This document shows positions 46,235 through 63,595 of a stretch of 64,000 nt of DNA, piece by piece (within the stretch, counting starts at the first letter, position 1; every line of letters begins with the position of its first letter). The notes beneath the pieces are model-generated. The model saw only the letters and a program-made list of their open reading frames with translations. It did no database searches and was not told where the DNA came from. This stretch comes from an archaeon. Its GTDB lineage: Bacteria > Gemmatimonadota > Glassbacteria > GWA2-58-10. The stretch is from positions 958 to 64,957 of the forward strand of contig DATKXY010000274.1 in NCBI GenBank assembly GCA_035528795.1, given 5' to 3'. The translations under genes were made by a program, and so were the position numbers.

Positions 46235-47239
46235 ATGCCTGGAGTTCTGAAAAAGTTCAAAAAAGGCGATGTGATTATCGCCGAGGGTACCACAGGCAAA
46301 TTCCTTTATATCATTGAATCTGGCAAAGTCGAGGTGACCAAGGAAAGCCCTACCGGTCCTTTGCAACTTGCCACTTTGGGCCCCAATGAAGTTTTCGGCG
46401 AAATGAGCCTGATTGACGACCGTTTCAGCCGCCGCACCGCCACAGTCCGAGCCATTGAGGACAGCCAGGTAATAGTCCTCGACAGACGGGGGTTTGACAG
46501 TTACATCAATCAGGCCTCCCCCGGTATCTTCAACCTGATCAAAAGACTCTCCAAACGTCTGCGGGAAACAAACGATATTATCACCCGCGCTGGTGGAGAT
46601 GTGCATAACCTTCCTAAAGCCCTCAAAACAAAACCGGTCACCGGGGATAAAGAGCAAAAACTCACTTTCGACCAGATGGCTGAATCAGTAGAAGCCGCAG
46701 TTGACCTCAACCTCATGCCGAAAAAATTCAAAAAAGACCAATTGCTGATCAGGGAGAACGCCGATGCAATGAGCCTTTTCCTGATCAGGGACGGAGCAGT
46801 CAAGATTTTCAAGAAACTGGGCGACCAGGAAGTCGAGATCGACACTCTCTGCGCCAGTGAGGTGTTTGGCGAGATCAGCATGTTCGGCGACGGGAAGCGC
46901 TTTGTGACTGCAAAAGCCATTGAAGACGGGGAAGCGGTCGTTTTCAGCAAGAAACAAATGGACGAAATGCTTCGCAAAGCCCCGCTCGAGCTTTTTTTGA
47001 TTATGGAATGCATGACCCAGAAGTTGAAAAGGATTACCTTGCGTTTTCTGGAACAGATGGATGAAAAACAAAAATCAGAGAGTGTGTGCCGGAAACTGGA
47101 AGCGGAGCTGAACGACTTGAAAAAAGAGAATTTGACGCTTCAGGAAAACCTCAAGAAAATGCGCGAAAATCAAACTGCCAGACCTGCTTTCACCCCTGTC
47201 GATCCCGCTTCGCCACCCCAGGATAATGAGATCACCTGA
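46235..47239 (+). CDS. Tandem cyclic-nucleotide-binding (cNMP) domain protein with a C-terminal coiled-coil. No recognisable HTH.
   Basis: Two cNMP motifs, FGEMSLIDDRFSRRTATVRA and FGEISMFGDGKRFVTAKA (the conserved Gly-Glu...Arg-(T/S)-A phosphate-binding cassette). The C-terminal KLEAELNDLKKENLTLQENLKKM is coiled-coil. Confidence 0.75.
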   Translation: MPGVLKKFKKGDVIIAEGTTGKFLYIIESGKVEVTKESPTGPLQLATLGPNEVFGEMSLIDDRFSRRTATVRAIEDSQVIVLDRRGFDSYINQASPGIFNLIKRLSKRLRETNDIITRAGGDVHNLPKALKTKPVTGDKEQKLTFDQMAESVEAAVDLNLMPKKFKKDQLLIRENADAMSLFLIRDGAVKIFKKLGDQEVEIDTLCASEVFGEISMFGDGKRFVTAKAIEDGEAVVFSKKQMDEMLRKAPLELFLIMECMTQKLKRITLRFLEQMDEKQKSESVCRKLEAELNDLKKENLTLQENLKKMRENQTARPAFTPVDPASPPQDNEIT

Positions 47240-52294: not shown

Positions 52295-53782
52295 ATGTCA
52301 CAAATAATTCCCGAGAAGAAAGAGTTCCTTGCCAAAGCCAAACCAGGCAGAATCGTCTCGGTGGCTACCGAGCTTTACACGGATACCGAGACACCAATCA
52401 GCGTGTTCAAGAAAATCTGCGAGCCGAGCGAATACGCTTTTCTATTGGAAAGCGTGGAGATGGAGGAAAAGATCGGACGTTTCTCTTTCCTCGGTCTCTC
52501 TCCATATGTCACTTTCCAGGCTCGCGGCTCACAGATCGAGTTAACCAGAGATGGAAAGGTGAGCCGCTTCGAGGGTAATCCGATAGAATACCTGAAAGAC
52601 TGGATAAAAACTTACAAACCGGTGCCGATCGAGGGGCTGCCCAGGTTTCAATGCGGAATTGTGGGTTACTTTTCTTATGATATCGTCCGCTATTTTGAAA
52701 AAATTCCCTGTACCAAGCCCGACCCTCTGGTCCTTCCTGATTGCTTCCTGATGGTTGCTGACCGGTTGATTGTTTTTGACCATGTCAAGCATACCCTGAT
52801 TGTCATTGTCAGTGCCTTTATCGAAAAAGGCGACCACCCGGACTCGATTTATGAGGCGACCTGCGAAAAAATACGCTGGATTGTCCGGCGGATTAATGAA
52901 ATCGTGCTCGTGCCCCAGAACCTGAGGCCGCCGAGCGAAAGATCATCCCTTAAAACCTCTTCGAACACCACCTGCGAGGATTACATAAGGATGGTGCGGC
53001 GGGCCAAAGAATATATTTACAAGGGAGACATTTTCCAGGTCGTGCTGAGCCAGCGGCTGTCTGCAGAGCTCAAGGGAGACCCCTTCAATGTCTACCGGGC
53101 GCTGCGGCGGATCAACCCCTCACCTTATATGTTTTACCTGAAGTTTGGAGAGCTTAAGATCGCCGGCTCGTCACCGGAGGTTCTGGTCAGGGTGGAAAAT
53201 GGAGTGGTCACTAGCCGGCCCCTGGCAGGCACCAGGCCGCGCGGAGCAAGTCCCGAGAAAGATAAAAAGCTCGAAAAAGAGCTGCTGGCAGATCCCAAGG
53301 AAAGGGCCGAGCATGTGATGCTTGTCGATCTGGGGCGCAACGATCTGGGGCGCATCTGCCGCTACGGCACAGTCAAGGTCACCGAGCAGCTGGCTATCGA
53401 GCGCTATTCCCACGTAATGCATATTGTGTCCAATGTAGAAGGCCGCCTGCGGCCGGAGGTCAACGCCCTCGATGTACTGGGCGCCTGTTTCCCTGCGGGC
53501 ACTGTGAGCGGCGCCCCGAAAGTCAGGGCCATGGAGATTATCGATGAACTGGAGAAAGAAACCAGGGGCATCTACGCCGGAAGCGTGGGCTATATCGATT
53601 TTTCCGGGAACCTGGATTTTTGTATCACCATCCGCACAATCGTGATTAAAGGCTCCACCGCTTATGTTCAGGCCGGGGCCGGCCTGGTCGCCGACTCCGA
53701 TCCCCGGCGCGAGTACCAGGAAACTCTCAACAAAGCAAAAGCGCTGCTTAAAGCTATCGAGCAATCGCAGGAGTTCCTATGA
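52295..53782 (+). CDS. trpE: Anthranilate synthase component I
   Basis: [17 protein letters not shown] (Trp feedback region), [11 protein letters not shown], and the C-terminal chorismate-binding motifs [17 protein letters not shown]. Confidence 0.9.
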
Positions 53783-54351
53783 TCCTTGTCATTGACAACT
53801 ATGACTCTTTTACCTATAATCTCGTCCAGTATCTGGGTGAAATGGGCGCTGATATTGCTGTCTACCGCAACGATAAGATCACGGTAGAGGAGGCTGAAGC
53901 CCTGAATCCCAAGGGGCTGATCATCTCGCCCGGCCCGGGTACGCCGAATGATGCCGGGATATCGCTCAAGCTGATTACCCGTCTTGAAAACCGCCTCCCC
54001 ATCCTGGGTGTCTGCCTGGGCCACCAGTGCATAGGCCAGGCCTATGGAGGACGGGTGGTGGGAGCTCCCACTCTGATGCACGGTAAAACCAGTTTGATCC
54101 ATCACGATGGCTCATCTCTTTACAAAGGCGTCGCTAACCCCTTCGAAGCCACGCGCTACCATTCTCTGGTTGTGGACCGGGATTCTTTCCCCGGATGCCT
54201 CGCCATAACGGCCCGGACAGAGGACGGGGTGATTATGGGCCTGCGCCATGCCCAATTTCCAGTCGAAGGAGTGCAGTTCCACCCGGAATCGTTCCTGACT
54301 ACTGAGGGCAAAAAAATTCTGCGTAATTTTCTTGATCGGGTAAAAGAATAA
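53779..54351 (+). CDS. trpG: Anthranilate synthase component II (glutamine amidotransferase)
   Basis: [15 protein letters not shown]...ILGVCLGHQ (catalytic Cys)...HPES. The start overlaps the trpE stop. Confidence 0.85.
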
Positions 54352-54427
54352 AAACAAGTCACTACTGGAGCAGTCAGAATGGGAAAACTGGCACGAAGTT
54401 TTCAGGATCTACCGGAAGCCTGTTCTA

Positions 54428-55081
54428 ATGCCTGGGCGGAATTCTGTCTTCCGGGCACTGATCACTTTATATTTGAATAATTACCAAATGACGGCTATGG
54501 ACTACGGACGCATTAAAAGGGAACTAGGCCCGCCGGATGCCCGGTGGATCTGTGTGTTCGGCACCTCGGATCCTGCAGATACCCAAAGCGTGGAAGAATC
54601 CGAACGCATGGGGCGCGCTCTGGCTCAAGCCGGTTATGTCGTGGTTACCGGCGGCTACGGAGCGGCCATGGAGGGAGCAAACCGCGGAGCGCAAGCAGCC
54701 GGGGGGTATTCAGTCGGTGTTACCTGCTCCCTCTTTTCCCGTAAACCCAATGCCTATTTAAACCACAGGTTCGAGGCGGACAGCCTGCTCCAGAGGCTCG
54801 AAACCCTGCTCCGGCTCGGGGATGGTTATGTGGCTGGAAAAGGCGGGACAGGCACCCTGGCCGAGATTGCCCTGGCCTGGGAATATATCAACAAGCGCAT
54901 TCTGCCCGGCAGAGCACTGGTGCTCCTGGGCGACTTCTGGTCCGTGCTGCCTGAAATCATGCGCAACGCCAAGGCCGCCCCGGGTGTCAGTCTCGGACGG
55001 GCATCGGAATCAATAGCCACAGCCCGGGATGTCCAGGAGGCAGTGCGAATTCTCAATCAAACACTCGGCAAATCCGCATGA
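54428..55081 (+). CDS. LOG-family (TIGR00730-like Rossmann) protein, a putative nucleotide 5'-monophosphate nucleosidase, inserted in the trp operon
   Basis: ICVFGTSDP...YVVVTGGYGAAMEGANRGA...GGTGTLAEI matches the LOG family GGYGxME and GGxGTxxE motifs. The true start may be the internal ATG near 54488. Confidence 0.6.
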   Translation: MPGRNSVFRALITLYLNNYQMTAMDYGRIKRELGPPDARWICVFGTSDPADTQSVEESERMGRALAQAGYVVVTGGYGAAMEGANRGAQAAGGYSVGVTCSLFSRKPNAYLNHRFEADSLLQRLETLLRLGDGYVAGKGGTGTLAEIALAWEYINKRILPGRALVLLGDFWSVLPEIMRNAKAAPGVSLGRASESIATARDVQEAVRILNQTLGKSA

Positions 55082-55136
55082 GCTAAGATACGGTGGAGGC
55101 TGCCCGATACATTTGCAAGCAGCAGGAGAAATCAAC

Positions 55137-56159
55137 ATGCTAGTTGTCGAGGCGATCCGCTCCCTGGTGGAGGGCCGCGATCTGAGCGCTGAACAAGCCC
55201 GGGGGGCGATGAACGAGATTATGGAGGGCAAAGCGCTGCCCTCACAAATTGGAGCCTTTCTAACCGCGCTGCGGATTAAAGGCGAAACTGTGGCAGAGAT
55301 CACTGCCTTTGCCCAGGTGATGCGCGACAAGGTCACCCGCGTGGAATCCCGCGCCCATGCCGTGGTGCTTGATACCTGCGGTACCGGGGGGGATGGATCA
55401 TGCAGTTTTAACATTTCCACGGCTGCAGCCTTTGTGGCCTCCGGAGCCGGGGTCCCGGTAGCCAAGCACGGGAACCGCTCAGTGTCGAGCGCCTGCGGAA
55501 GCGCCGATGTACTTAAAGAGCTCGGGGTAAATATCCAGGCCGGCCCTGAAACAGTCAGCCGCTGCCTGGATCAAGCAGGGATCTGCTTCATCTTCGCTCC
55601 GCTGTTTCATCCGGCGATGAAGCATGCGATCGGGCCGCGGCGCGAAATCGCTATCCGGACGGTGTTCAATATTCTGGGGCCCCTGACCAACCCGGCGGGC
55701 GCCAAATGCCAGCTCCTGGGCGTTTACTCCGCAGAGCTGACAGAGAAGCTGGCCGGAGTGCTGGCCGGGCTGGGCAGCCGCAAGGCTTATGTAGTCCACG
55801 GGCACGGCGGTATCGATGAGGTGTCGCTCAGCGGGCCGACTAAAATCGCCGAGCTCAAGGATGGCAAGGTAAAAAGTTATACTGTCAAGCCTCAGGACTT
55901 CAAGCTTGCACCTCAGCCACCCGAGGCGATTCGAGGAGGCGAGGCTCCAGAGAACGCCCGGATATTCAAGGAAGTGCTCGAGGGCCGGGCCGGGGCTTAC
56001 AGGGACGCGGTGCTTCTCAACGCCGGGGCTGCAATCAGCGCTTTCCACGAAAGGATGTCGATTGCGGAAGGGATCGGGCTGGCAGCAGAATCAGTGGACA
56101 GCGGCAAGGCAGCCGTGAAGCTCGCTGAGCTGATCGAGCTGACAAACGAGGCCCCTTGA
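55137..56159 (+). CDS. trpD: Anthranilate phosphoribosyltransferase
   Basis: DTCGTGGDGSCSFNISTAAAFVASGAGVPVAKHGNRSVSS, the canonical TrpD PRPP-binding motif. Start ATG at 55137, after GGAGAAATCAAC. Confidence 0.85.
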   Translation: MLVVEAIRSLVEGRDLSAEQARGAMNEIMEGKALPSQIGAFLTALRIKGETVAEITAFAQVMRDKVTRVESRAHAVVLDTCGTGGDGSCSFNISTAAAFVASGAGVPVAKHGNRSVSSACGSADVLKELGVNIQAGPETVSRCLDQAGICFIFAPLFHPAMKHAIGPRREIAIRTVFNILGPLTNPAGAKCQLLGVYSAELTEKLAGVLAGLGSRKAYVVHGHGGIDEVSLSGPTKIAELKDGKVKSYTVKPQDFKLAPQPPEAIRGGEAPENARIFKEVLEGRAGAYRDAVLLNAGAAISAFHERMSIAEGIGLAAESVDSGKAAVKLAELIELTNEAP

Positions 56160-56206
56160 TCCGGCTGGAGCTATAATGAATATAAAAAGCATCCTTTAGA
56201 ATCCAC

Positions 56207-57022
56207 ATGCCAGTATTTGATAAAAAAAGTATCCTTGACAAGATACTCGAGCATAAAAGGCAGGAGGTTGCCGCAGCCCAAAGAGAGCTGCCCCTGAATG
56301 AGCTTAAAAGCAGGCTGCGCGACCTGCCGCAGTCCCGCGGGAAGAGCCGTTTTGCTCGAGCGCTGACTAAAACGGATAAAGTATCCCTGATCGCCGAGAT
56401 CAAAAAGGCCAGCCCCTCGGCCGGGCTGATCCGCGAAGATTTCGATCCCCGCGCGCTCGGGGCGGCTTACGCAGAGGGAGGAGCGAGCGCTTTAAGTGTC
56501 TTGACCGACAGGAAATATTTCCAGGGAGCGGATGAATACCTTGTCCAGGCCAAGGCCGCTTCCGGCCTGCCGGCGCTCAGGAAAGATTTCACTGTGTCGG
56601 CATACCAGCTTTACGATTCCTGTCTCCTTGGCGCAGATTGCGTGCTTTTAATCGCTGCCGCTCTCGAGGAGGGCCGGCTTGCCGAGTTTATCGCCCTGGC
56701 TGATGAGCTCTCCCTTGATGCCCTGGTCGAGGTGCATAACCAGGCCGAGCTCGAGCTGGCAGTCGCCTGCAAAGCCCGGATCATCGGGGTCAATAACCGG
56801 GACCTGAAGACATTCGAGGTCCTGCTGAAAGTCTCGGAAAATCTGGCCGAGCTTTTACCGTCTTCCTGCGTCAAGGTCTCCGAGAGCGGCATTTCAAGCC
56901 ACGGCCATATCAGGCTTCTTGGCTCTCTGGGCTACGATGCGGTCCTGGTGGGCGGACACCTGATGCGGGCAGCCGATCCTGCAGCCGCTGTGAGGACCCT
57001 CATGAACGGGAACTCCCTTTGA
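56207..57022 (+). CDS. trpC: Indole-3-glycerol phosphate synthase
   Basis: LIAEIKKASPSAGLI...ALSVLTDRKYFQG...LRKDF...GVNNRDL, the IGPS (beta/alpha)8 motifs. Confidence 0.85.
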   Translation: MPVFDKKSILDKILEHKRQEVAAAQRELPLNELKSRLRDLPQSRGKSRFARALTKTDKVSLIAEIKKASPSAGLIREDFDPRALGAAYAEGGASALSVLTDRKYFQGADEYLVQAKAASGLPALRKDFTVSAYQLYDSCLLGADCVLLIAAALEEGRLAEFIALADELSLDALVEVHNQAELELAVACKARIIGVNNRDLKTFEVLLKVSENLAELLPSSCVKVSESGISSHGHIRLLGSLGYDAVLVGGHLMRAADPAAAVRTLMNGNSL

Positions 57023-57639
57023 GAGTACGAGTCAAAATCTGCGGGATCACCCGCCTGGAGGATGCGCTTGCAGCCGCACGGCTCGGCGCCCATGCAGTGG
57101 GCTTCGTGTTTCACCCCCCGAGTCCGCGCTATATCGAGCCTGCCTCGGCAGCGGCAATCGTAAAGAAGCTGCCTGCTTTTCTCACTACCGTGGGCGTGTT
57201 CGTGGATCTCGATCAGGAAACCGTGCGGTGCACTGCAGCGCTGTCTGGTGTGGATGTTGTTCAGCTTCACGGCTCGGAGAGCCCTGAGTACTGCCAGGGT
57301 CTGGGGCTTAAATGGATCAAGAGCTTTCGTATCGGGAGCCCGGAAGACCTGAAACTTCTCGCCCCATACGGCGCGGACAGGGACTTCCTGCTAGATAGCA
57401 GCATAGAGGGGCTCCCCGGCGGGACCGGCCGGACATTCAACTGGGAGTGGGCCGCCGGCGCAGGCCGCTACGGCAGGATCATCCTGGCTGGAGGCCTGAC
57501 GCCTGAGAACGTGGCCCGGGCCGTGGCCCTGGTAAACCCTGTGGGTGTGGATGTCTCGAGCATGGTGGAAAAAGCCCCCGGGATAAAAGATGTCGATAAA
57601 ATGGCCGCCTTTATCAATGCGGTGCGAAATATAGATTGA
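57019..57639 (+). CDS. trpF: Phosphoribosylanthranilate isomerase
   Basis: MRVRVKICGITRLEDALAAARLGAHAVGFVF...LLDS...AGGLTPENV. Confidence 0.85.
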   Translation: MRVRVKICGITRLEDALAAARLGAHAVGFVFHPPSPRYIEPASAAAIVKKLPAFLTTVGVFVDLDQETVRCTAALSGVDVVQLHGSESPEYCQGLGLKWIKSFRIGSPEDLKLLAPYGADRDFLLDSSIEGLPGGTGRTFNWEWAAGAGRYGRIILAGGLTPENVARAVALVNPVGVDVSSMVEKAPGIKDVDKMAAFINAVRNID

Positions 57640-57737
57640 TATCTTTGAAGTCAAGCTCCGACTGATGCGCAAAATCATCCATAACCAGCCAACCGTCAAT
57701 CCGGTTGACCGGTGCGGTTACATGAAAGGCAACCAAG

Positions 57738-58607
57738 ATGAAAATCAAAATCGGGCTGCCGAAAGGCAGCCTGCAGGAAGCCACTTTCGAGCTTTTCCGC
57801 AGGGCCGGATACAATTTCAGCATCTCCGAGCGCAGCTACTTCCCTTCGATCGATGACCCGGAGATCGAGGCCATGCTGATCAGGGCCCAGGAGATGGCCC
57901 ACTATGTCGAGGTCGGAGTGTTCGATGCCGGGCTGACCGGCAAGGACTGGATTCTCGAGAACGGGGCGGATGTAGTGGAAGTCGCCGACCTGGTCTACGC
58001 CAAACGGAGCATGCGCCCGGTGCGCTGGGTGCTCGCAGTGCCCAATGACTCGCCGGTCCAGTCAGTGAAAGACCTCGAGGGCGCGAAGATCTCTACCGAG
58101 GTGGTCAATATCGCCCGCAGGTACCTGGAAGATCACGGGGTAACCGCTGAGGTCGAATTCTCCTGGGGCGCAACCGAAGCCAAAGTCCCAGACCTGGCGG
58201 ATGCGATTATCGAGGTGACAGAGACTGGCAGCTCTCTACGGGCCAATAACCTGCGGATTGTGGAGACCGTGCTCGAGTCCACCACCAGGCTGATCGCGAA
58301 CAAAAAAGCCTGGAGCGATCCAGGCAAGCGGGAAAAAATCGAGAATATCGCCCTGATGCTCAAAGGCGCTATCGAGGCTGAGGGCAAAGTAGGAATAAAG
58401 CTGAATGTGCTAAAATCCCACCTGGCTGAGCTGGTCCGGATCCTTCCGGCAATGAAAAATCCCACGATCAGCTCATTGAATGACCCGGAATGGGTGGCAG
58501 TGGAGGTGATTCTGGATGAAAACATTGTCCGCAAGATCGTGCCCGAGCTGAAAAAGAAAGGCGGGCGCGATATAATCGAATACCCGCTGAACAAGGTCAT
58601 TCCCTGA
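57738..58607 (+). CDS. hisG: ATP phosphoribosyltransferase, long form with a C-terminal regulatory domain
   Basis: [25 protein letters not shown]...[18 protein letters not shown]. At 289 aa it carries the C-terminal His-binding regulatory domain. Confidence 0.85.
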
Positions 58608-58631
58608 TAACAACCGAAGGTCGGGAAAGAG

Positions 58632-59921
58632 ATGATTAAGATCATTCAGGAAAAAGGCGAGGATTTTCTCGCTGATCTCGCCAGGCGCAAGGCTGAAGAC
58701 CTGGACCGGGTGACTGCTGAGGTGTCCGAGATTATCCGCCGGGTGCGCAAGGAGGGTGACCGGGCCCTTGTTGAATTCACCCGGCGTTTCGACAAAGTCA
58801 GTCTGGCCCCTGAGCGCTTCCGGGTCACGGATCAGGAAATCGATCGGGCCGAAAGCAGCCTGGACACCGGGCTCAAAAAAGCCTTAAGCTCGGCTTACAA
58901 GCGAATCTGCGATTACCACGGCAGGCAGCTTGCCAACTCCTGGTTTACCACAGGTCCGGATGGGGAAATTCTTGGCCAGCGGATTCTGCCGGTCGAGTCC
59001 GCGGCTATCTACGCCCCTGGAGGCAAAGCCGCCTATCCGAGCAGCGTGCTTATGGGAGCAGGCGCTGCGCGGACTGCCGGCGTGAAAAGGCTGGTGCTCC
59101 TCTCCCCTCCCGATCCCGAGGGCGGGATCAACCCTGCGGTCCTTTTCGCCGCGCGAACGCTCGGAAAAGTGGATGAGATATACCGTCTCGGCGGAGCGCA
59201 CGCTATTGCCGCAGCGGCTTACGGGACAGAGAGCCTGCGCCCGGTAGATGTGATCGCCGGGCCGGGGAATATCTATGTCACCGCTGCTAAAAAACTGGTT
59301 TACGGAACAGTGAATATCGACATGCTGGCAGGCCCGAGCGAGATACTGGTAATTGCAGACAGCTCGGCGCGCCCGGCGTGGATTGCCGCTGACCTGTTGA
59401 GCCAGGCCGAACACGATGAGCGCTCAGCCTGCTGTCTTGTAACCACAAGCAGCGATTTAGCCGGGCGGGTTCAAAAAGAGCTCGAGGCTCAGCTTGAGCG
59501 CCTGCCTAAAAAGGAGATCGCAGCTCAGGCAATACAAAACTTCGGCGCGATTCTCCTGGCCCGGGACCTGGATGAGGCGGCCTTTCTGGCCAACCTCTTC
59601 GCCCCGGAGCATCTCGAGCTCCTCGTGGCCGATCCCTGGTCGCTCCTGGGCAGGATACAAAACGCCGGGGCCGTTTTCCTAGGACCGTACACCCCTGAGG
59701 CGGTCGGCGACTACTGGGCCGGACCGAATCATGTGCTCCCTACCGGGGGCTCGGCGAAAAATTTCTCTCCTCTCGGAGTGGAGGTGTTTCTTAAAAGATC
59801 GAGCCTGATCTCTTTCAACCGGCCAGCCTTCGAGCGGGCGCTTAAACCAGTAACCCTGATGGCACGGGCCGAGGGCCTCGAGGCCCACGCCCGCTCCATG
59901 GAAATAAGGAAAGAAAAATAA
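58632..59921 (+). CDS. hisD: Histidinol dehydrogenase
   Basis: IYAPGGKAAYPSSVLM...AGPSEILVIAD...LLSQAEHD...GDYWAGPNHVLPTGG, the HisD signature. Confidence 0.9.
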   Translation: MIKIIQEKGEDFLADLARRKAEDLDRVTAEVSEIIRRVRKEGDRALVEFTRRFDKVSLAPERFRVTDQEIDRAESSLDTGLKKALSSAYKRICDYHGRQLANSWFTTGPDGEILGQRILPVESAAIYAPGGKAAYPSSVLMGAGAARTAGVKRLVLLSPPDPEGGINPAVLFAARTLGKVDEIYRLGGAHAIAAAAYGTESLRPVDVIAGPGNIYVTAAKKLVYGTVNIDMLAGPSEILVIADSSARPAWIAADLLSQAEHDERSACCLVTTSSDLAGRVQKELEAQLERLPKKEIAAQAIQNFGAILLARDLDEAAFLANLFAPEHLELLVADPWSLLGRIQNAGAVFLGPYTPEAVGDYWAGPNHVLPTGGSAKNFSPLGVEVFLKRSSLISFNRPAFERALKPVTLMARAEGLEAHARSMEIRKEK

Positions 59922-59923
59922 AG

Positions 59924-61006
59924 ATGAACCTTAGCCGCTCGGTAAAAAATATTGTCCGCCCGGACCTCCTGGAGCTTAAAGCCTATCGGTCGCCCTGTTT
60001 CGAGTATCAAATCAAGCTCGACTTGAACGAAAGCCCGTTCGACCTGCCGGAAGAGATCAAGGAAGCGATATTCGAGCGCACAAGAGGACTTCTCTGGCAG
60101 CGCTATCATGATGAGTTCGAAACGCCGCTCAAAAAAGCCCTGGCCGATCATGTCGGGCACGATTCCAGGGGCGTCCTGATTGGAAACGGCTCAAACGAGC
60201 TCATTTTTCATACCCTGCTCTCGACAGTCAAAAACAGTGGAGCGGTGGTCTCTCTTGAGCCTTCTTTCAGCCTGTACCGCCAGAACGTGAAAGTCCTCGG
60301 GGGAAAGCCGGTGCCATTCTGGCTCAGCGGCGAGTCTTTTACCGTGGATCCCCGGGAGGTCATCCGGCTCGCCCGGGATTCCAAGGCTGATGCAGTGGTG
60401 CTCTGTTCGCCCAATAACCCGACCGGCGGCCGCATTCCCAACGAGGTGATCGAAAAAATCGCCCATTCAGTGGAAGCGGCTGTCGTTGTGGATGAGGCTT
60501 ACGCGCATTTTGCCGGGGACAATGCCCTGGGCCTTTTGCGAAAATGCCCGAACCTGATCGTGATTCGGACTTTCAGCAAGGCTTTCGGCCTGGCTGGCCT
60601 GCGTTTCGGTTTCGCGCTCTGCGCTCCCGAGCTTGCAGAGCAAATCTGCAAGGTGCAGCTTCCGCACCATGTAAACTTTTTCACCCAACTCGCCGCTCTC
60701 ACTCTGCTTGAGCGGCCCGAGCTTGTCGAGCAACGAGTGGCGGAAATCAAGCAGGGCCGAAAACACCTTCAAACTGAATTATCAAAAATAACAGGCCTCA
60801 AGGTCTTTCCCAGTGAGACTAATTTCGTGATGATAGAATGCAATGCAAAATCTCCAGCCGAGATTTTCGAGGGTCTGCTCTCCCGCGGCATTCTGGTGCG
60901 GGATATAAGCAAGTACCAGGGGCTCGGGCGCTGCCTGCGGATCACTGTGGGGCCTCCCCGTGATAATGATGCGTTTCTTGAGGCGCTCAGAGAGGTCACA
61001 GCATGA
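59924..61006 (+). CDS. hisC: Histidinol-phosphate aminotransferase
   Basis: Class II aminotransferase with LDLNESP, NPTGG, and a PLP-Lys in IVIRTFSKAFGLAGLRFG. Confidence 0.85.
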   Translation: MNLSRSVKNIVRPDLLELKAYRSPCFEYQIKLDLNESPFDLPEEIKEAIFERTRGLLWQRYHDEFETPLKKALADHVGHDSRGVLIGNGSNELIFHTLLSTVKNSGAVVSLEPSFSLYRQNVKVLGGKPVPFWLSGESFTVDPREVIRLARDSKADAVVLCSPNNPTGGRIPNEVIEKIAHSVEAAVVVDEAYAHFAGDNALGLLRKCPNLIVIRTFSKAFGLAGLRFGFALCAPELAEQICKVQLPHHVNFFTQLAALTLLERPELVEQRVAEIKQGRKHLQTELSKITGLKVFPSETNFVMIECNAKSPAEIFEGLLSRGILVRDISKYQGLGRCLRITVGPPRDNDAFLEALREVTA

Positions 61007-62043
61007 AATCCACGGAATTCAGAAAGCTTTCGGTAGCCTCCGGGGGGCTCTGGAAAAGGAAAGACCCGCAGCCTGTGCCTCTTGAGACAGTAGACGCGGT
61101 GATTTTCGATGTCGACGGGGTCCTGGTTGAGGTAAGCGGCTCTTTCCGCCATGTAATAAGCCAGAGCGTACAGTTCTATTTCAACCGGATCCTTGAAGTT
61201 CCCGGAGAAGAGCGCCTGGTCTCAGGAGAGGAGACAGGGCTTTTCAAGCTCGCCGGCAATTTCAACAACGACTGGGATGTTACCAAAGGCGCAGTGGCCT
61301 ATGGCCTGATGAAGCTAATGAATCTTGACGGTGTGAGTGATAAAAATATCGAGCATCTACGAAAAAAAACGCCGGCGCTCGAGGAGTTTACCGAAGAGAT
61401 CAAAAACCGCGGCGGAGGATTAAGAGTGACTCTCGAGATTATCCGCGAGAAACTCGGGAAACAAGACTTTTCCAGGTTCACGAGCCTTTACAGGCCTGAC
61501 CTTATCAGGCAGCTCTTTTTAGAGCATTACGCCGGTTCCGGGCTCTGCCGGGCCCTTTACGGTTTCGATCCCCGGTATGCGGAAGGGCCCGGACTGATAG
61601 AACGGGAACGTGACATCGTGGATGTCCCGCTCTTGAGAAAAACGGCAGCCAATGGCATTGCTCTCGGCATTCTCTCAGGCAGGATTCCATCCGAGGCCGA
61701 ATACCTTTTCCGGAAGAACGGGATGGACAGTCTTCTGAACCCGGATTTCGTGGTGACTGACGACGGGTCCCTGCCGTCAAAACCTGACCCTGCCGGATTG
61801 AGCCTTCTGGCCCGGAAAATGGGTTTCCAGGCCGCGATCTATGTGGGCGATGTTCCGGATGACTGGACCACGGTCTCCGCTTATAACTCCCAATCCCGGA
61901 ATACCGCCCCGATCGCCTGCTGCATGGTACAGACCGGAGCGGTCTCGGACAAGCTCATATCGCTTTTCTATGAAGAGTCCGGAGTGGACTACGTAGCCGC
62001 TGATGTCAACTGTCTGCTTAAAGCGCTGCTTTTGCATAGATAA
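61003..62043 (+). CDS. HAD-superfamily hydrolase (subfamily IA-like), a candidate histidinol-phosphate phosphatase
   Basis: Motif I AVIFDVDGVLV, motif II ILSGR, motif III KPDP, motif IV YVGDVPDD. 346 aa with a large cap insertion. ATGA start overlap with the hisC stop. It sits between hisC and a monofunctional hisB. Confidence 0.6.
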   Translation: MKSTEFRKLSVASGGLWKRKDPQPVPLETVDAVIFDVDGVLVEVSGSFRHVISQSVQFYFNRILEVPGEERLVSGEETGLFKLAGNFNNDWDVTKGAVAYGLMKLMNLDGVSDKNIEHLRKKTPALEEFTEEIKNRGGGLRVTLEIIREKLGKQDFSRFTSLYRPDLIRQLFLEHYAGSGLCRALYGFDPRYAEGPGLIERERDIVDVPLLRKTAANGIALGILSGRIPSEAEYLFRKNGMDSLLNPDFVVTDDGSLPSKPDPAGLSLLARKMGFQAAIYVGDVPDDWTTVSAYNSQSRNTAPIACCMVQTGAVSDKLISLFYEESGVDYVAADVNCLLKALLLHR

Positions 62044-62217
62044 GCGCTGAAACAAATAGGGCTATAAAGAAACCTTTGACAAATGTTATCATTCTACCCA
62101 AAAGACATTGACTATTTTTATAACGCTTTATAAATCAATAGGTTATTGTAGGGGCGGCTCGCGAACCCCCCTGCAGACCTTCCCCTCGAAACCCGATTTT
62201 AATCCAGGGAGCGCCCA

Positions 62218-62811
62218 ATGAGTTCCCCAAGAACCGCCACTGTAGAAAGAAAAACCAGCGAAACGGATATCCGCTTGACGCTGAACCTGGACGGCATGGG
62301 CGAAAGCTCTGTCGCAACCGGCATCGGTTTTTTTGACCACATGCTCACCGCCCTTGCCAGACATGCGCGTTTCGATATCGATCTGACCTGTAAGGGAGAT
62401 TTACATATCGACGAGCACCACTCGGTCGAGGATGTGGGGATCGTGGTTGGAGAGGCTTTGCGAAAAGCATTAGGCGATAAGTCCGGTATCAGGCGGTTTT
62501 CCCAGGGCTATGCTCCCCTGGATGAGGCATTGAGCAGGGTCGTGGTTGACTTGAGCGGCAGAGGTCTCCTTATTTTCCGCGGTGACCTTAAGCGGGAAAA
62601 GGTCGGGGACATGAGCACCGAGCTGGTGGAGGATTTCTGGCGCGCCCTGGCCTCGAAGGCAGGAATCACCATGCACATGGAGTTCCTTTACGGCGTCAAT
62701 ACGCACCACCTGGTGGAAAGCATGTTTAAAGCGGCTGCCCTGGCCCTTCACCAGGCCACGAGAATCGTTCCCGGAGCCGAGGAGGTTCCCTCGACAAAAG
62801 GGGTTCTCTAA
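62218..62811 (+). CDS. hisB: Imidazoleglycerol-phosphate dehydratase (monofunctional)
   Basis: RKTSETDI...GIGFFDHML...DLHIDEHHSVEDVGI...HHLVESMFKA. The IGPD Mn-binding His/Glu motifs are present. At 197 aa it has no fused phosphatase domain. Confidence 0.85.
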   Translation: MSSPRTATVERKTSETDIRLTLNLDGMGESSVATGIGFFDHMLTALARHARFDIDLTCKGDLHIDEHHSVEDVGIVVGEALRKALGDKSGIRRFSQGYAPLDEALSRVVVDLSGRGLLIFRGDLKREKVGDMSTELVEDFWRALASKAGITMHMEFLYGVNTHHLVESMFKAAALALHQATRIVPGAEEVPSTKGVL

Positions 62812-62995
62812 GCAAGGCCGGGCGGTCGGCTGCGCTTTTTCAGCGGACTGAGGGTATCCCGGCCCGCCCCCGGCTTTCCGAAAACGTTGACAATAAACAT
62901 TGAAACACTCTTTTTCAACTTTCTGACTAATCAGAATACTTCCTTAATGCTCACAAATGTTCCCGGTTAAAACCAGTTAAGAATAATTTTAGGGA

Positions 62996-63595
62996 ATGAT
63001 CAACATAATCGACTTCAAAATGGGCAACCTGCGCAGTGTCGAGAAGGCCTTTCACCACCTGGGATTCGAGGCGGCTATCAGCCAGGAACCCCGTGACATC
63101 CCCGGAGCAAGCCATCTGGTCCTGCCCGGGGATGGGGCTTTCGGCAAAAGCATGCAGCATATCCGCGAAATGGGCTTCGAGGACCCGATAAGGGAATTCA
63201 TCTCCTCAGGCCGGCCCTTTCTGGGCATCTGTGTGGGTTTCCAGCTCCTTTTCGGGACCAGCGAGGAAATGGGAATCCACAAGGGTTTCGGCCTTTTCCA
63301 GGGCGCGGTCAAAAAATTTCCCAAAGGCAGAAAGATCCCCCACATGGGCTGGAACCAGGTGAGCTGGCGCCGCATATCTGCGCTTTCCGCAGGCATCCCG
63401 GATAACTCCTATTTTTATTTCGTGCACTCCTATTATGCAGCGGCCACTGATCCTGATAATATACTCGGCACCACGGATTACGGGATAAATTTTGTTTCGG
63501 TCGCCGGACAGAGAAACATTTTCGCGGTGCAGTTCCACCCGGAGAAAAGCCAGGAGGCGGGATTGCGGCTGTTGAAAAATTTCGCCGAAATATAA
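62996..63595 (+). CDS. hisH: Imidazole glycerol phosphate synthase, glutamine amidotransferase subunit
   Basis: MINIIDFKMGNLRSV...LGICVGFQLL (catalytic Cys)...VQFHPEKS. Confidence 0.85.
   Translation: MINIIDFKMGNLRSVEKAFHHLGFEAAISQEPRDIPGASHLVLPGDGAFGKSMQHIREMGFEDPIREFISSGRPFLGICVGFQLLFGTSEEMGIHKGFGLFQGAVKKFPKGRKIPHMGWNQVSWRRISALSAGIPDNSYFYFVHSYYAAATDPDNILGTTDYGINFVSVAGQRNIFAVQFHPEKSQEAGLRLLKNFAEI

What the first reader, a model, noticed from the sequence alone, without database searches (positions are those of the whole stretch)
61003..62043. HAD-IA-like hydrolase between hisC and a monofunctional hisB is a candidate for the missing histidinol-phosphate phosphatase
The his genes here are G-D-C-[HAD]-B-H-A. 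hisB (197 aa) is dehydratase-only, so the pathway needs a separate histidinol-phosphatase. No HisN (IMPase-type), PHP-type HisJ or DDDD-type HisB-N is present. The HAD protein has all four HAD motifs (DVDGVL; S; K; GDxxDD). Its start overlaps the hisC stop (ATGA), which implies translational coupling. Its cap insertion (346 aa total) is much larger than in typical beta-PGM-like enzymes, so it may be a distinct histidinol-phosphatase lineage.
Basis: partly seen in the sequence, partly recalled or inferred. Interest (0 to 1): 0.6.

Follow-up and report, generated by a model that had tools for sequence, protein, structure and literature searches.

The report
Archaeal-type histidinol phosphatase in his operon
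The gene between hisC and hisB encodes a HAD-family phosphatase related to the histidinol-phosphate phosphatases reported as proven in Thermococcus and Nitrosopumilus, so it very probably supplies the 'missing' step of histidine synthesis here; this helps annotation but is not a new kind of enzyme.

Summary
ORF 61003-62043 (+, 346 aa) starts in an ATGA overlap with the hisC stop. It carries all four HAD motifs and lies in hisG-hisD-hisC-HAD-hisB-hisH-hisA, and hisB encodes the dehydratase only. No other histidinol-phosphate phosphatase (HolPase) type was found in the window.

The functional guess is well supported. The 'distinct lineage' idea is not.
- **Family.** The protein belongs to the TIGR01548-related HAD group. 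That group contains the monofunctional HolPases of Thermococcales (toHisN) and, according to the literature, Nitrosopumilus Nmar_1556 (nmHisN).
- **Homology.** Profile-profile probability against the Thermococcales group is 99.95% (E 2e-37), covering core and cap. The only solved relative is Tt82 (6iah).
- **Fingerprint.** Two of the four published specificity residues (K82, D90) are invariant. The other two are F48 and R49, where nmHisN has Y and D.
- **Context.** In 20 of the 21 most similar species genomes, spanning several bacterial phyla, the gene directly adjoins his genes, and every downstream hisB identified is short.
- **Fusions.** Relatives occur fused to HisC or to HisD inside his operons.

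No activity was measured. The Nmar_1556 sequence could not be obtained, and the rest of the genome is unseen.

Verdict: a new bacterial member of a known enzyme kind, with moderate annotation value.

The parts
57738..58607 (+). hisG, long-form ATP phosphoribosyltransferase (289 aa)
   Evidence: TIGR00070 and TIGR03455, both above cut-off
58632..59921 (+). hisD, histidinol dehydrogenase (429 aa). It consumes the product of the proposed phosphatase.
   Evidence: TIGR00069, 517 bits
59924..61006 (+). hisC, histidinol-phosphate aminotransferase (360 aa). It makes the proposed substrate.
   Evidence: TIGR01141, 300.5 bits against a cut-off of 276.55
60990..60995 (+). GAGAGG Shine-Dalgarno-like hexamer inside the end of hisC, 7 nt before the HAD start codon
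   Evidence: Read directly from the sequence
61003..61006 (+). ATGA overlap: the HAD start codon and the hisC stop codon share bases. Translational coupling is inferred.
   Evidence: In one search the same geometry (ORF start 3 nt before the upstream stop) is seen with hisC in L005, L007, L011, L025, L031, L033 and L034, and with hisD in L024.
61003..62043 (+). Candidate monofunctional histidinol-phosphate phosphatase (346 aa), HAD superfamily, TIGR01548-related, toHisN/nmHisN type
61003..61092 (+). N-terminal extension (residues 1-30). It is predicted to form a beta-hairpin (strands 9-13 and 16-19). It is present in the bacterial long forms and absent from Thermococcales and haloarchaeal members.
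   Evidence: Alignment; model (block pLDDT 96 for residues 11-30)
61108..61125 (+). HAD motif I, DVDGVL. D36 is the nucleophile and D38 the general acid/base; roles are assigned by analogy with HAD enzymes.
   Evidence: D36, D38, G39 and V40 are invariant in 117 sequences
61132..61617 (+). Single all-helical cap inserted directly after motif I (about residues 44-205, nine predicted helices). It includes F48-R49 at the start of the first cap helix and the RGGGL motif (136-140).
   Evidence: Model; hhalign alignment; conservation
61243..61278 (+). Cap signature FKLAGNFNNDWD (residues 81-92). It contains K82 and D90, which correspond to the published specificity residues K/R56 and E/D64.
   Evidence: K82, G85, N88, D90 and W91 are invariant in 28 diverse sequences. 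They align with R48, G51, D55 and D56 of Tt82.
61672..61683 (+). HAD motif II region, LSGR (S225, G226, R227)
   Evidence: G226 and R227 are invariant
61777..61791 (+). HAD motif III, SKPDP (K260)
   Evidence: K260 and P261 are invariant
61846..61863 (+). HAD motif IV, GDVPDD (D283, D286, D287; Mg2+ ligands by analogy)
   Evidence: G282, D283, D286 and D287 are invariant
62044..62217 (.). 174-nt spacer between the HAD gene and hisB, AT-rich (44% GC against 53% for the window). It holds TTGACA- and TTGACT-like hexamers followed by TATAAA. A possible internal promoter; not tested.
   Evidence: The consensus scanner did not report it. No Rfam match.
62218..62811 (+). hisB, monofunctional imidazoleglycerol-phosphate dehydratase (197 aa)
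   Evidence: NF002109 and NF002111 above cut-off. It aligns only to positions 164-355 of bifunctional model NF003937.
62996..63595 (+). hisH (199 aa)
   Evidence: TIGR01855
63639..64000 (+). hisA, cut by the end of the window. hisF follows on the longer contig.
   Evidence: Called genes of L001, shifted by 51002

Best explanation
The ORF encodes the monofunctional L-histidinol-phosphate phosphatase of this his operon. It would catalyse step 8 of histidine synthesis, between HisC and HisD. It is a bacterial, long-cap member of the HAD group that contains the reported Thermococcales enzymes (toHisN) and, per the literature, Nitrosopumilus nmHisN.

Proposed mechanism:
- D36 attacks the phosphate of histidinol phosphate, and D38 acts as general acid/base.
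- S225 and K260 hold the phosphate.
- D283, D286 and D287 hold Mg2+.
- The helical cap closes over the site and selects the substrate through the invariant K82...N88-D90-W91 loop and the first cap helix (F48, R49, I52).
- The gene is translated in step with hisC through the ATGA overlap.

Shown here: the homology, the motifs, the conserved context and the fusions. Inferred: the catalytic roles (from general HAD chemistry and the published nmHisN alanine scan) and the activity itself.
For: 1. **Homology to reported HolPases.**
- hhalign of the family alignment against the Thermococcales/Thermoplasmatota group gives probability 99.95%, E 2e-37, over 242 columns covering core and cap.
- The family profile hits PDB 6iah (Tt82, Thermococcus thioreducens) at E 1.9e-33. 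The next hit is at 5.6e-12.
- Foldseek of a pLDDT-94 model against 6iah gives E 8e-11 and TM 0.82 normalised to the target.
- The T. kodakarensis member P0333 lies at the end of hisZGDBHAFIE-hisC, overlapping hisC.
- PMC10804674 and PMC5516325 cite Lee et al. 2008 for HolPase activity of this Thermococcales enzyme.
- PMC10804674 shows that Nmar_1556, a HAD gene between hisC and hisB, is a specific HolPase.

2. **Specificity residues.**
- K82 and D90 are invariant or nearly so in 117 homologues. They correspond to K/R56 and E/D64 of the published fingerprint.
- The aromatic residue lies 12 residues after the nucleophile, as in Tt82.
- Fingerprints among the 117 homologues: F-R-K-D in 63, Y-R-K-D in 30.
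- Y-R-K-D is what the paper reports for Euryarchaeota cluster II and delta-proteobacteria.

3. **Conserved context.**
- Of the 21 most similar species genomes, 20 have the gene directly next to hisC or hisD and/or hisB. The 21st has hisB 2.5 kb downstream. In all, 28 of 80 loci are his-adjacent.
- These loci carry Glassbacteria, Actinomycetota, Atribacterota, Fervidibacter, Abditibacteriota, Armatimonadota and Anaerolineae labels.
- In the 17 loci where a downstream hisB ORF was identified, it is about 195-205 aa, except one mechanically called ORF of 234 aa.

4. **Rosetta-stone fusions.**
- At least seven representative proteins are an aminotransferase domain fused to this HAD. The two scanned with NCBIfam (P0228, P0256) score above the HisC cut-off on TIGR01141.
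- One representative is HisD fused to this HAD.
- Both fusion types sit in his operons directly upstream of, or close to, a monofunctional hisB.

5. **Need and absence of alternatives.** hisB here lacks a phosphatase domain, and no other HolPase type is in the window.
Against: - No enzymatic or genetic test exists for this protein or for any bacterial long-cap member.
- Two of the four fingerprint residues differ from the two characterised enzymes: F48 for Y and R49 for D. Y24A and D25A each cut nmHisN kcat/KM by more than 200-fold (PMC10804674).
- That paper calls HolPase assignment for the R-containing clusters 'less reliable'.
- The protein scores 99 bits on TIGR01548, below the 140.2 cut-off.
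- It is only about 24% identical to the Thermococcales proteins.
- The title of the Tt82 structure paper speaks of 'diverse substrate specificity' (citation seen; paper not held).
- Family members are not always his-linked. Haloarchaeal and Desulfobacterales members lie elsewhere.
- Only 64 kb of the genome is visible, so another HolPase may exist.
- The Nmar_1556 sequence itself was never aligned.
Confidence: 0.8

Rival explanations
1. It is a general or differently specialised HAD phosphatase (sugar phosphate, phosphoglycolate or similar) that merely travels with the his genes. The true HolPase would be encoded elsewhere in the genome.
For: - Tt82, the only solved relative, was published under a title claiming diverse substrate specificity (citation).
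- Weak NCBIfam hits to phosphoglycolate phosphatase and PpaX models.
- F48 and R49 differ from the characterised fingerprint.
- Only one window of the genome is visible.
Against: - The generic models score 13-29 bits against cut-offs of 180-415.
- The hisC/hisD-HAD-hisB placement is kept across phyla in 20 of the 21 closest genomes.
- Fusions to HisC and to HisD are hard to explain for an unrelated phosphatase.
- The cap residues K82, N88, D90 and W91 are invariant.
Confidence: 0.09
2. It replaces HisE (phosphoribosyl-ATP pyrophosphatase), since hisIE is missing from this his cluster and HAD-family pyrophosphatases exist.
For: - No PRA-CH or PRA-PH gene lies in the cluster trpE...hisF on the longer contig.
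- Structural matches include the Bacteroides HAD pyrophosphatase BT2127.
- GapMind 2026 lists hisI/hisE as another common gap.
Against: - T. kodakarensis and the HisC-HAD fusion locus L088 carry hisIE as well as this HAD.
- The fusion partners are HisC and HisD, the enzymes either side of the HolPase step.
- The BT2127 matches are much weaker (E about 1e-7, TM about 0.43) than Tt82.
Confidence: 0.03
3. It is an independently recruited HolPase lineage derived from beta-PGM-like HAD-IA enzymes, unrelated to any known HolPase.
For: - The cap is unusually long and the protein has 346 residues.
- It scores below the TIGR01548 cut-off.
Against: - Full-length profile homology, cap included, to the Thermococcales group.
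- The cap signature is shared with TIGR01548 members and with Tt82.
- The same operon position as Nmar_1556 (PMC10804674).
Confidence: 0.03
4. It is a HolPase with a second physiological substrate, such as phosphoserine. That compound shares the R-CH(NH3+)-CH2-O-PO3 skeleton, so the enzyme could fill two pathway gaps.
For: - Price et al. 2018 note the chemical similarity and considered such bifunctionality.
- serB and hisN gaps often co-occur.
Against: - nmHisN did not hydrolyse O-phospho-L-serine or eight other compounds.
- No serine-pathway genes lie nearby.
Confidence: 0.05

Closest known systems
Monofunctional HAD ('DDDD') HolPase of Thermococcales: toHisN of T. onnurineus (Lee et al. 2008, J Bacteriol 190:2629). 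Relatives include T. kodakarensis P0333 and Tt82 (PDB 6iah).
   Same: - HAD core with a single helical cap inserted after motif I.
- The aromatic residue lies 12 residues after the nucleophile, and the basic and acidic cap residues are 8 apart.
- The gene directly follows and overlaps hisC.
- Full-length profile homology.
   Different: - About 24% identity.
- The Thermococcales proteins are about 240 aa with a seven-helix cap. This protein is 346 aa with nine cap helices, a 30-residue N-terminal beta-hairpin extension and a longer C-terminus.
- The fingerprint is Y-D-R-D there and F-R-K-D here.
nmHisN (Nmar_1556) of Nitrosopumilus maritimus (Kinateder et al. 2024, PMC10804674)
   Same: - A HAD gene between hisC and hisB.
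- One large cap described as nine helices.
- The fingerprint spacing fits: Y24/K56/E64 there against F48/K82/D90 here.
- A Mg2+-dependent, specific HolPase.
   Different: - It is archaeal.
- The fingerprint is Y-D-K-E.
NCBIfam TIGR01548 (HAD-SF-IA-hyp1), a 'hypothetical equivalog' with no assigned function
   Same: - It is the best family hit (E 2e-28, full profile length).
- Haloarchaeal members and the HisC-fused forms reach or approach the cut-off.
   Different: This protein scores 99.2 bits against a cut-off of 140.2, so it is a divergent relative. About 65 extra residues interrupt the profile match.
HisB-N, the phosphatase domain of bifunctional HisB (E. coli, Salmonella)
   Same: The same superfamily, the same chemistry and the same pathway step.
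   Different: - HisB-N has minimal loop caps with a zinc-binding motif and is fused to IGPD.
- No meaningful sequence match here: TIGR01656 at E 0.027 and 14 bits.
paHisN (PA0335) type, SerB-like HAD HolPases of beta- and gamma-proteobacteria
   Same: A monofunctional HAD HolPase that fills the same gap.
   Different: - A different cap architecture (four helices plus a turn) and a different fingerprint (D16-D18-Y47), according to PMC10804674.
- It is not his-operon linked in the same way.
PDB 1qyi (S. aureus Q8NW41, structural-genomics protein of unknown function)
   Same: Best Foldseek E-value (1.5e-11, TM 0.60 normalised to the query). It is a large-cap HAD of similar size at 380 aa.
   Different: - 18% identity.
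- The profile match covers only the C-terminal core.
- No evidence for the cap signature or for a his context.

Membership tests
toHisN/nmHisN-type monofunctional HAD HolPase | Four HAD core motifs with the catalytic Asp pair | tested here: met
   DVDGVL 36-41, S225, K260, GDVPDD 282-287. The catalytic residues are invariant in 117 homologues.
toHisN/nmHisN-type monofunctional HAD HolPase | One large all-helical cap inserted directly after motif I, with no second cap | tested here: met
   The AlphaFold2 model (pLDDT 94) has nine helices between residues 48 and 201. The cap aligns with the Thermococcales cap.
toHisN/nmHisN-type monofunctional HAD HolPase | Detectable full-length homology to a characterised member or its close relatives | tested here: met
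   - hhalign 99.95%, E 2e-37.
- Profile against 6iah, E 1.9e-33.
- Foldseek TM 0.82.
- BLASTP against T. kodakarensis P0333, E 2e-10.
- That P0333 is the enzyme named in Lee 2008 is inferred from organism and operon position.
toHisN/nmHisN-type monofunctional HAD HolPase | Specificity fingerprint Y24-D25-K/R56-D/E64 (PMC10804674) | tested here: inconclusive
   - K82 and D90 are present and invariant.
- F48 replaces Y, and R49 replaces D.
- R at this position is what the paper reports for Euryarchaeota cluster II and delta-proteobacteria.
- F and Y alternate among his-linked orthologues, about 19 F to 8 Y.
toHisN/nmHisN-type monofunctional HAD HolPase | Gene located in a his cluster next to hisC and/or hisB | tested here: met
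   Seen in the window, in 28 of 80 related loci including 20 of the 21 closest, and in T. kodakarensis.
toHisN/nmHisN-type monofunctional HAD HolPase | Direct alignment with Nmar_1556 | not tested
toHisN/nmHisN-type monofunctional HAD HolPase | Mg2+-dependent hydrolysis of L-histidinol phosphate | not testable with these tools
   Needs an enzyme assay or complementation.
NCBIfam TIGR01548 | Whole-protein score at or above the curated cut-off of 140.2 bits | tested here: not met
   99.2 bits, E 2.1e-28, covering profile positions 1-194 of 197. It is the best hit but lies below the cut-off.
HisB-N type HolPase domain (TIGR01656) | Match to the histidinol-phosphatase domain model | tested here: not met
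   14.4 bits against a cut-off of 84.15.
IMPase-type HisN / PHP-type HisJ | Inositol monophosphatase (PF00459) or PHP (PF02811) domain | tested here: not met
   Pfam finds only PF00702 and PF13419.
Phosphoglycolate phosphatase / beta-PGM-like HAD-IA | Equivalog-level match (TIGR01449, TIGR02009) | tested here: not met
   22.7 and 18.7 bits against cut-offs of 180 and 153.

The most novel reading that the evidence does not exclude
The bacterial long-cap clade may not be a free-standing copy of the archaeal enzyme. It may work in physical association with HisC and/or HisD as a histidinol-phosphate channelling unit. The clade-specific N-terminal beta-hairpin and enlarged cap would serve as docking surfaces. 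The F48/R49 pair would reflect a re-tuned substrate pocket. The recurrent HisC-HAD and HisD-HAD fusions and the start/stop overlaps would then be traces of that association.
Probability: 0.12. Interest if true: 0.55.

Novelty: new member of a known kind. Interest (0 to 1): 0.38.

Why it matters
Histidinol-phosphate phosphatase is the step of histidine synthesis most often unassigned. GapMind 2026 still finds it missing in 42 of 208 prototrophs. NCBI's model for this family still carries no function, and the exact protein is deposited only as 'HAD family hydrolase'.

The comparative evidence gathered here extends a function shown in archaea, and predicted for 22 delta-proteobacterial sequences, to his operons of several mostly uncultured bacterial phyla. 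That evidence consists of his-operon linkage in MAGs labelled Glassbacteria, Atribacterota, Armatimonadota, Abditibacteriota, Fervidibacter, Actinomycetota and Chloroflexota, together with the HisC and HisD fusions.

If one long-cap member is confirmed biochemically, a family-level annotation rule could close part of that gap and reduce false predictions of histidine auxotrophy in MAGs. It does not reveal a new enzyme class.

Tried and rejected
**Attempts to align directly with Nmar_1556 (all failed).**
- No supplementary text is held for PMC10804674.
- A search seeded with Tt82 fragments returned Thermococcales and Thermoplasmatota only.
- A search seeded with the only Y-D-R-D protein in hand (P0247) returned Myxococcales, Desulfobacterales and Anaerolineae.
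- Three cluster look-ups gave almost no organism names.

**Papers not held.** Lee et al. 2008 and the Tt82 structure paper are not in the library. Their content is cited second-hand or by title only.

**Other dead ends.**
- Exact-protein look-ups for two window ORFs failed. I scanned those regions with Pfam instead.
- The promoter/terminator scan of the his region was not above shuffled expectation and missed the hexamers in the HAD-hisB spacer.
- Rfam found nothing in the window.

**Readings rejected.**
- HisE replacement, because hisIE co-occurs with this HAD elsewhere.
- Phosphoglycolate phosphatase, beta-PGM or PpaX, because all score far below cut-off.
- HisB-N type, because there is no match.
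Full report
**1. The observation**

The ORF at 61003..62043 on the + strand encodes 346 aa. Its ATG overlaps the hisC stop codon as ATGA at 61003-61006. A GAGAGG hexamer sits 7 nt upstream.

- motif I: DVDGVL, residues 36-41;
- motif II: S225, within LSGR;
- motif III: K260, within SKPDP;
- motif IV: GDVPDD, residues 282-287.

NCBIfam equivalog models confirm hisG, hisD, hisC and hisH. hisC scores 300.5 bits on TIGR01141, above the 276.55 cut-off. hisB is 197 aa. It matches only monofunctional IGPD models and aligns to positions 164-355 of the bifunctional HisB model, so it has no phosphatase domain.

On a longer metagenome contig the full order is trpE-trpG-(LOG-like)-trpD-trpC-trpF-hisG-hisD-hisC-HAD-hisB-hisH-hisA-hisF, followed by an F-type ATP synthase operon.

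No IMPase, PHP or HisB-N-type protein was found among called genes or ORFs of at least 180 aa in the window.

The gene is real:
- the identical protein occurs on 10 metagenome contigs;
- it has 127 homologues at E<=1e-3;
- its AlphaFold2 model has mean pLDDT 94 and pTM 0.89.

**2. Family assignment**

Pfam sees only generic HAD domains. The 191-position Hydrolase profile is stretched over residues 30-287.

The best NCBIfam hit is TIGR01548 (HAD-SF-IA-hyp1). It scores E 2e-28 over the full profile length but 99 bits, below the 140.2 cut-off. Phosphoglycolate phosphatase, beta-PGM, PpaX and HisB-N models score 13-23 bits against cut-offs of 84-415.

An alignment of 117 homologues gives these invariant residues:
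- the catalytic residues;
- G226, R227 and E231;
- a cap signature K82-x-A-G-x-F-N88-x-D90-W91, in which K82 and W91 are nearly invariant.

The model shows a Rossmann-like core and a single cap of nine helices between residues 48 and 201. It also shows an N-terminal beta-hairpin at residues 9-19. Only the bacterial long forms have this hairpin.

**3. Link to known histidinol-phosphate phosphatases**

The literature already describes this situation.
- Kinateder et al. 2024 (PMC10804674) followed an uncharacterised hydrolase gene lying between hisC and hisB in Thaumarchaeota (Nmar_1556).
- They showed it to be a Mg2+-dependent HolPase with kcat/KM about 1.1e4 M-1 s-1. It was inactive on nine other phosphoesters.
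- They described it as a HAD with one nine-helix cap.
- They defined a fingerprint Y24-D25-K/R56-D/E64, shared with toHisN of Thermococcus onnurineus (Lee et al. 2008).
- They reported Y-R-K-D in a Euryarchaeota cluster and in 22 delta-proteobacterial sequences.

I could not obtain the Nmar_1556 sequence. I could test the Thermococcales branch.
- The only PDB relative is 6iah, phosphatase Tt82 of T. thioreducens. It scores phmmer E 1.3e-7 and family-profile E 1.9e-33, against 5.6e-12 for the next entry. Foldseek gives E 8.3e-11 and TM 0.82 normalised to Tt82.
- A search seeded with Tt82 recovered the Thermococcales/Thermoplasmatota group, including the T. kodakarensis KOD1 protein P0333.
- P0333 is the last gene of hisZ-G-D-B-H-A-F-IE-hisC-HAD. 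It overlaps hisC and is followed by the trp operon.
- Profile-profile comparison of my family alignment with that group gives probability 99.95%, E 2e-37, over 242 aligned columns that include the cap.

In these alignments S47-F48-R49 falls on S-Y-D of Tt82. K82 falls on R48 and D90 on D56. The aromatic residue is 12 residues after the nucleophile in both proteins. The basic and acidic cap residues are 8 apart, as in the published numbering.

TIGR01548 is also the best NCBIfam hit of the other members tested:

| Protein | TIGR01548 bits |
|---|---|
| T. kodakarensis P0333 | 57 |
| Window protein | 99 |
| HisD-fused form P0149 | 112 |
| HisC-fused forms P0256, P0228 | 140, 151 |
| Haloarchaeal P0088 | 216 |

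The window protein therefore lies inside the span of a single homologous group.

**4. Comparative genomics**

A scan of one genome per GTDB species returned 80 loci. I mapped the window's His proteins onto them with tblastn.
- Of the 21 most similar loci, 20 have the HAD gene directly flanked by hisC or hisD upstream and/or hisB downstream. The 21st has hisB 2.5 kb downstream.
- In total 28 of 80 loci are his-adjacent.
- These loci carry labels of Ca. Glassbacteria, 'Gemmatimonadales', Actinomycetota MAGs, Atribacterota, Ca. Fervidibacter, Abditibacteriota, Armatimonadota and Anaerolineae.
- In the 17 loci where a downstream hisB ORF was identified, it is about 195-205 aa, so monofunctional. 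One mechanically called ORF is 234 aa.
- In at least eight loci the ORF start lies 3 nt before the upstream stop, the same overlap geometry as in the window.

Haloarchaeal members (Y-R-K-D) are not his-linked.

Among his-adjacent loci position 48 is F in about 19, Y in 8 and I in 1. The Y-to-F change therefore appears tolerated within a conserved context. This is an inference, not a measurement.

**5. Fusions**

An HMMER search of 1.84 billion cluster representatives found 422 clusters at E<=1e-30. Among the top 150:
- seven proteins of 544-580 aa have an N-terminal class I/II aminotransferase domain and this HAD at the C-terminus. The two scanned with NCBIfam, P0228 and P0256, score above the TIGR01141 HisC cut-off;
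- one protein of 730 aa is HisD followed by this HAD;
- the fusions inspected carry the S-Y-R ... K-x-x-G-G-[FY]-N-N-D-W signature.

Their contigs read [HisD-HAD]-hisC-hisB(196 aa) and [HisC-HAD]-hisB(195 aa)-hisH-hisA-hisF/IE.

HisC makes histidinol phosphate and HisD consumes histidinol. Fusion to exactly these two enzymes points to the step between them. The presence of hisIE in that second locus, and in T. kodakarensis, argues against the idea that the HAD replaces the pyrophosphatase HisE.

**6. Mechanism (inferred)**

By standard HAD chemistry:
- D36 forms the aspartyl-phosphate intermediate and D38 acts as acid/base;
- S225 and K260 bind the phosphate;
- D283, D286 and D287 bind Mg2+.

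By analogy with the nmHisN alanine scan:
- K82 would stabilise the transition state or protonate the leaving group;
- D90 and the aromatic residue at position 48 would contact the imidazole;
- I52 matches accessory residue I28.

R49 cannot play the role proposed for D25. Its function is unknown.

The ATGA overlap and the upstream Shine-Dalgarno-like hexamer suggest coupled translation with HisC.

**7. Weaknesses**

- No activity data exist for this protein or for any long-cap bacterial member.
- Two fingerprint residues differ from both characterised enzymes. The source paper itself rates R-containing clusters as less certain.
- Identity to Thermococcales proteins is only about 24%.
- The title of the Tt82 paper claims diverse substrate specificity. 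The paper is not held, so I could not check whether histidinol phosphate was tested.
- Some family members lie outside his clusters. Desulfobacterales-type members sit next to a second, SerB-like HAD.
- Only 64 kb of the genome is visible.

**8. Verdict**

The suggestion of a distinct lineage is not supported. This is a bacterial, long-cap member of the archaeal-type (toHisN/nmHisN, TIGR01548-related) HolPase group.

Its value is practical. The family still has no functional name in NCBIfam. GapMind 2026 neither cites the 2024 paper nor closes the hisN gap. The bacterial distribution and the HisC/HisD fusions found here go beyond the 22 delta-proteobacterial sequences noted in print.

Noticed in passing
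whole window; L001 14943-21041: The exact HAD protein is deposited in NCBI as 'MAG TPA: HAD family hydrolase [archaeon]'. The contig, however, carries a bacterial F-type ATP synthase operon and OmpA-type outer-membrane proteins. Its trp-his genes are 60-85% identical and fully syntenic to Ca. Glassbacteria and 'Gemmatimonadales' MAGs. The MAG's 'archaeon' label looks wrong.
   Followed up: partly
P0228, P0240, P0241, P0249, P0256, P0257, P0264 (aminotransferase-HAD); P0149 (HisD-HAD); loci L087, L088: Natural fusions of this HAD family to a HisC-like aminotransferase and to histidinol dehydrogenase, located inside his operons next to a monofunctional hisB. P0228 and P0256 are confirmed as HisC by NCBIfam. 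I found no mention of these fusions in the searchable literature, including a 2024 survey of archaeal fusion proteins.
   Followed up: partly
window 52295-63595 and L086 (T. kodakarensis): trp and his genes form one co-directional block here (trpE-G-x-D-C-F then hisG-D-C-HAD-B-H-A-F) and in the Glassbacteria-like relatives. T. kodakarensis has the mirror arrangement: the his operon ends in hisC-HAD and is followed directly by trpCDEGFBA. trpB and trpA are absent from the block in this window.
   Followed up: no
window 54428-55081 (+): A LOG / 'lysine decarboxylase-like' gene (PF03641, PF18306; 217 aa) is inserted between trpG and trpD. This is an odd passenger in a tryptophan operon.
   Followed up: no
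L089 5306-6957; L090 4928-7002: Desulfobacterales-type relatives carry the Y-R-K-D signature (SYR...KQSGGLNNDW). They are not in his clusters. In both loci examined they follow a second, SerB-like HAD gene (PF12710). In L089 they also lie near a choline-kinase-like gene and an amino-acid permease. Their substrate may differ, or his genes are simply dispersed there.
   Followed up: partly
window 62044-62217 and 62812-62995: hisB is flanked by unusually long spacers of 174 and 184 nt. The corresponding HAD-hisB gaps are 56-81 nt in the closest relatives. The upstream spacer is AT-rich, with TTGACA/TTGACT and TATAAA-like hexamers, which suggests an internal promoter. There is no Rfam match.
   Followed up: partly
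L001 13414-14937 (just beyond the window end): hisIE is absent from the his cluster. hisF is followed by a 132-aa ORF with no Pfam hit, and then by the ATP synthase operon. Where this organism encodes PR-ATP pyrophosphatase and PR-AMP cyclohydrolase is unknown.
   Followed up: no
PDB 1qyi (not in window): The best Foldseek E-value was to S. aureus Q8NW41, a 380-aa large-cap HAD of unknown function from structural genomics (TM 0.60, 18% identity). It may be a distant structural cousin of this long-cap group.
   Followed up: no
window 37025-44043 (+): A 1622-aa protein (Reg_prop, GAF and SpoIIE phosphatase domains) is followed, with a start/stop overlap, by a 717-aa GAF-PAS-guanylate/adenylate cyclase. 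A tandem cNMP-binding-domain protein lies at 46235-47239. Together they form a sizeable cyclic-nucleotide signalling neighbourhood.
   Followed up: no
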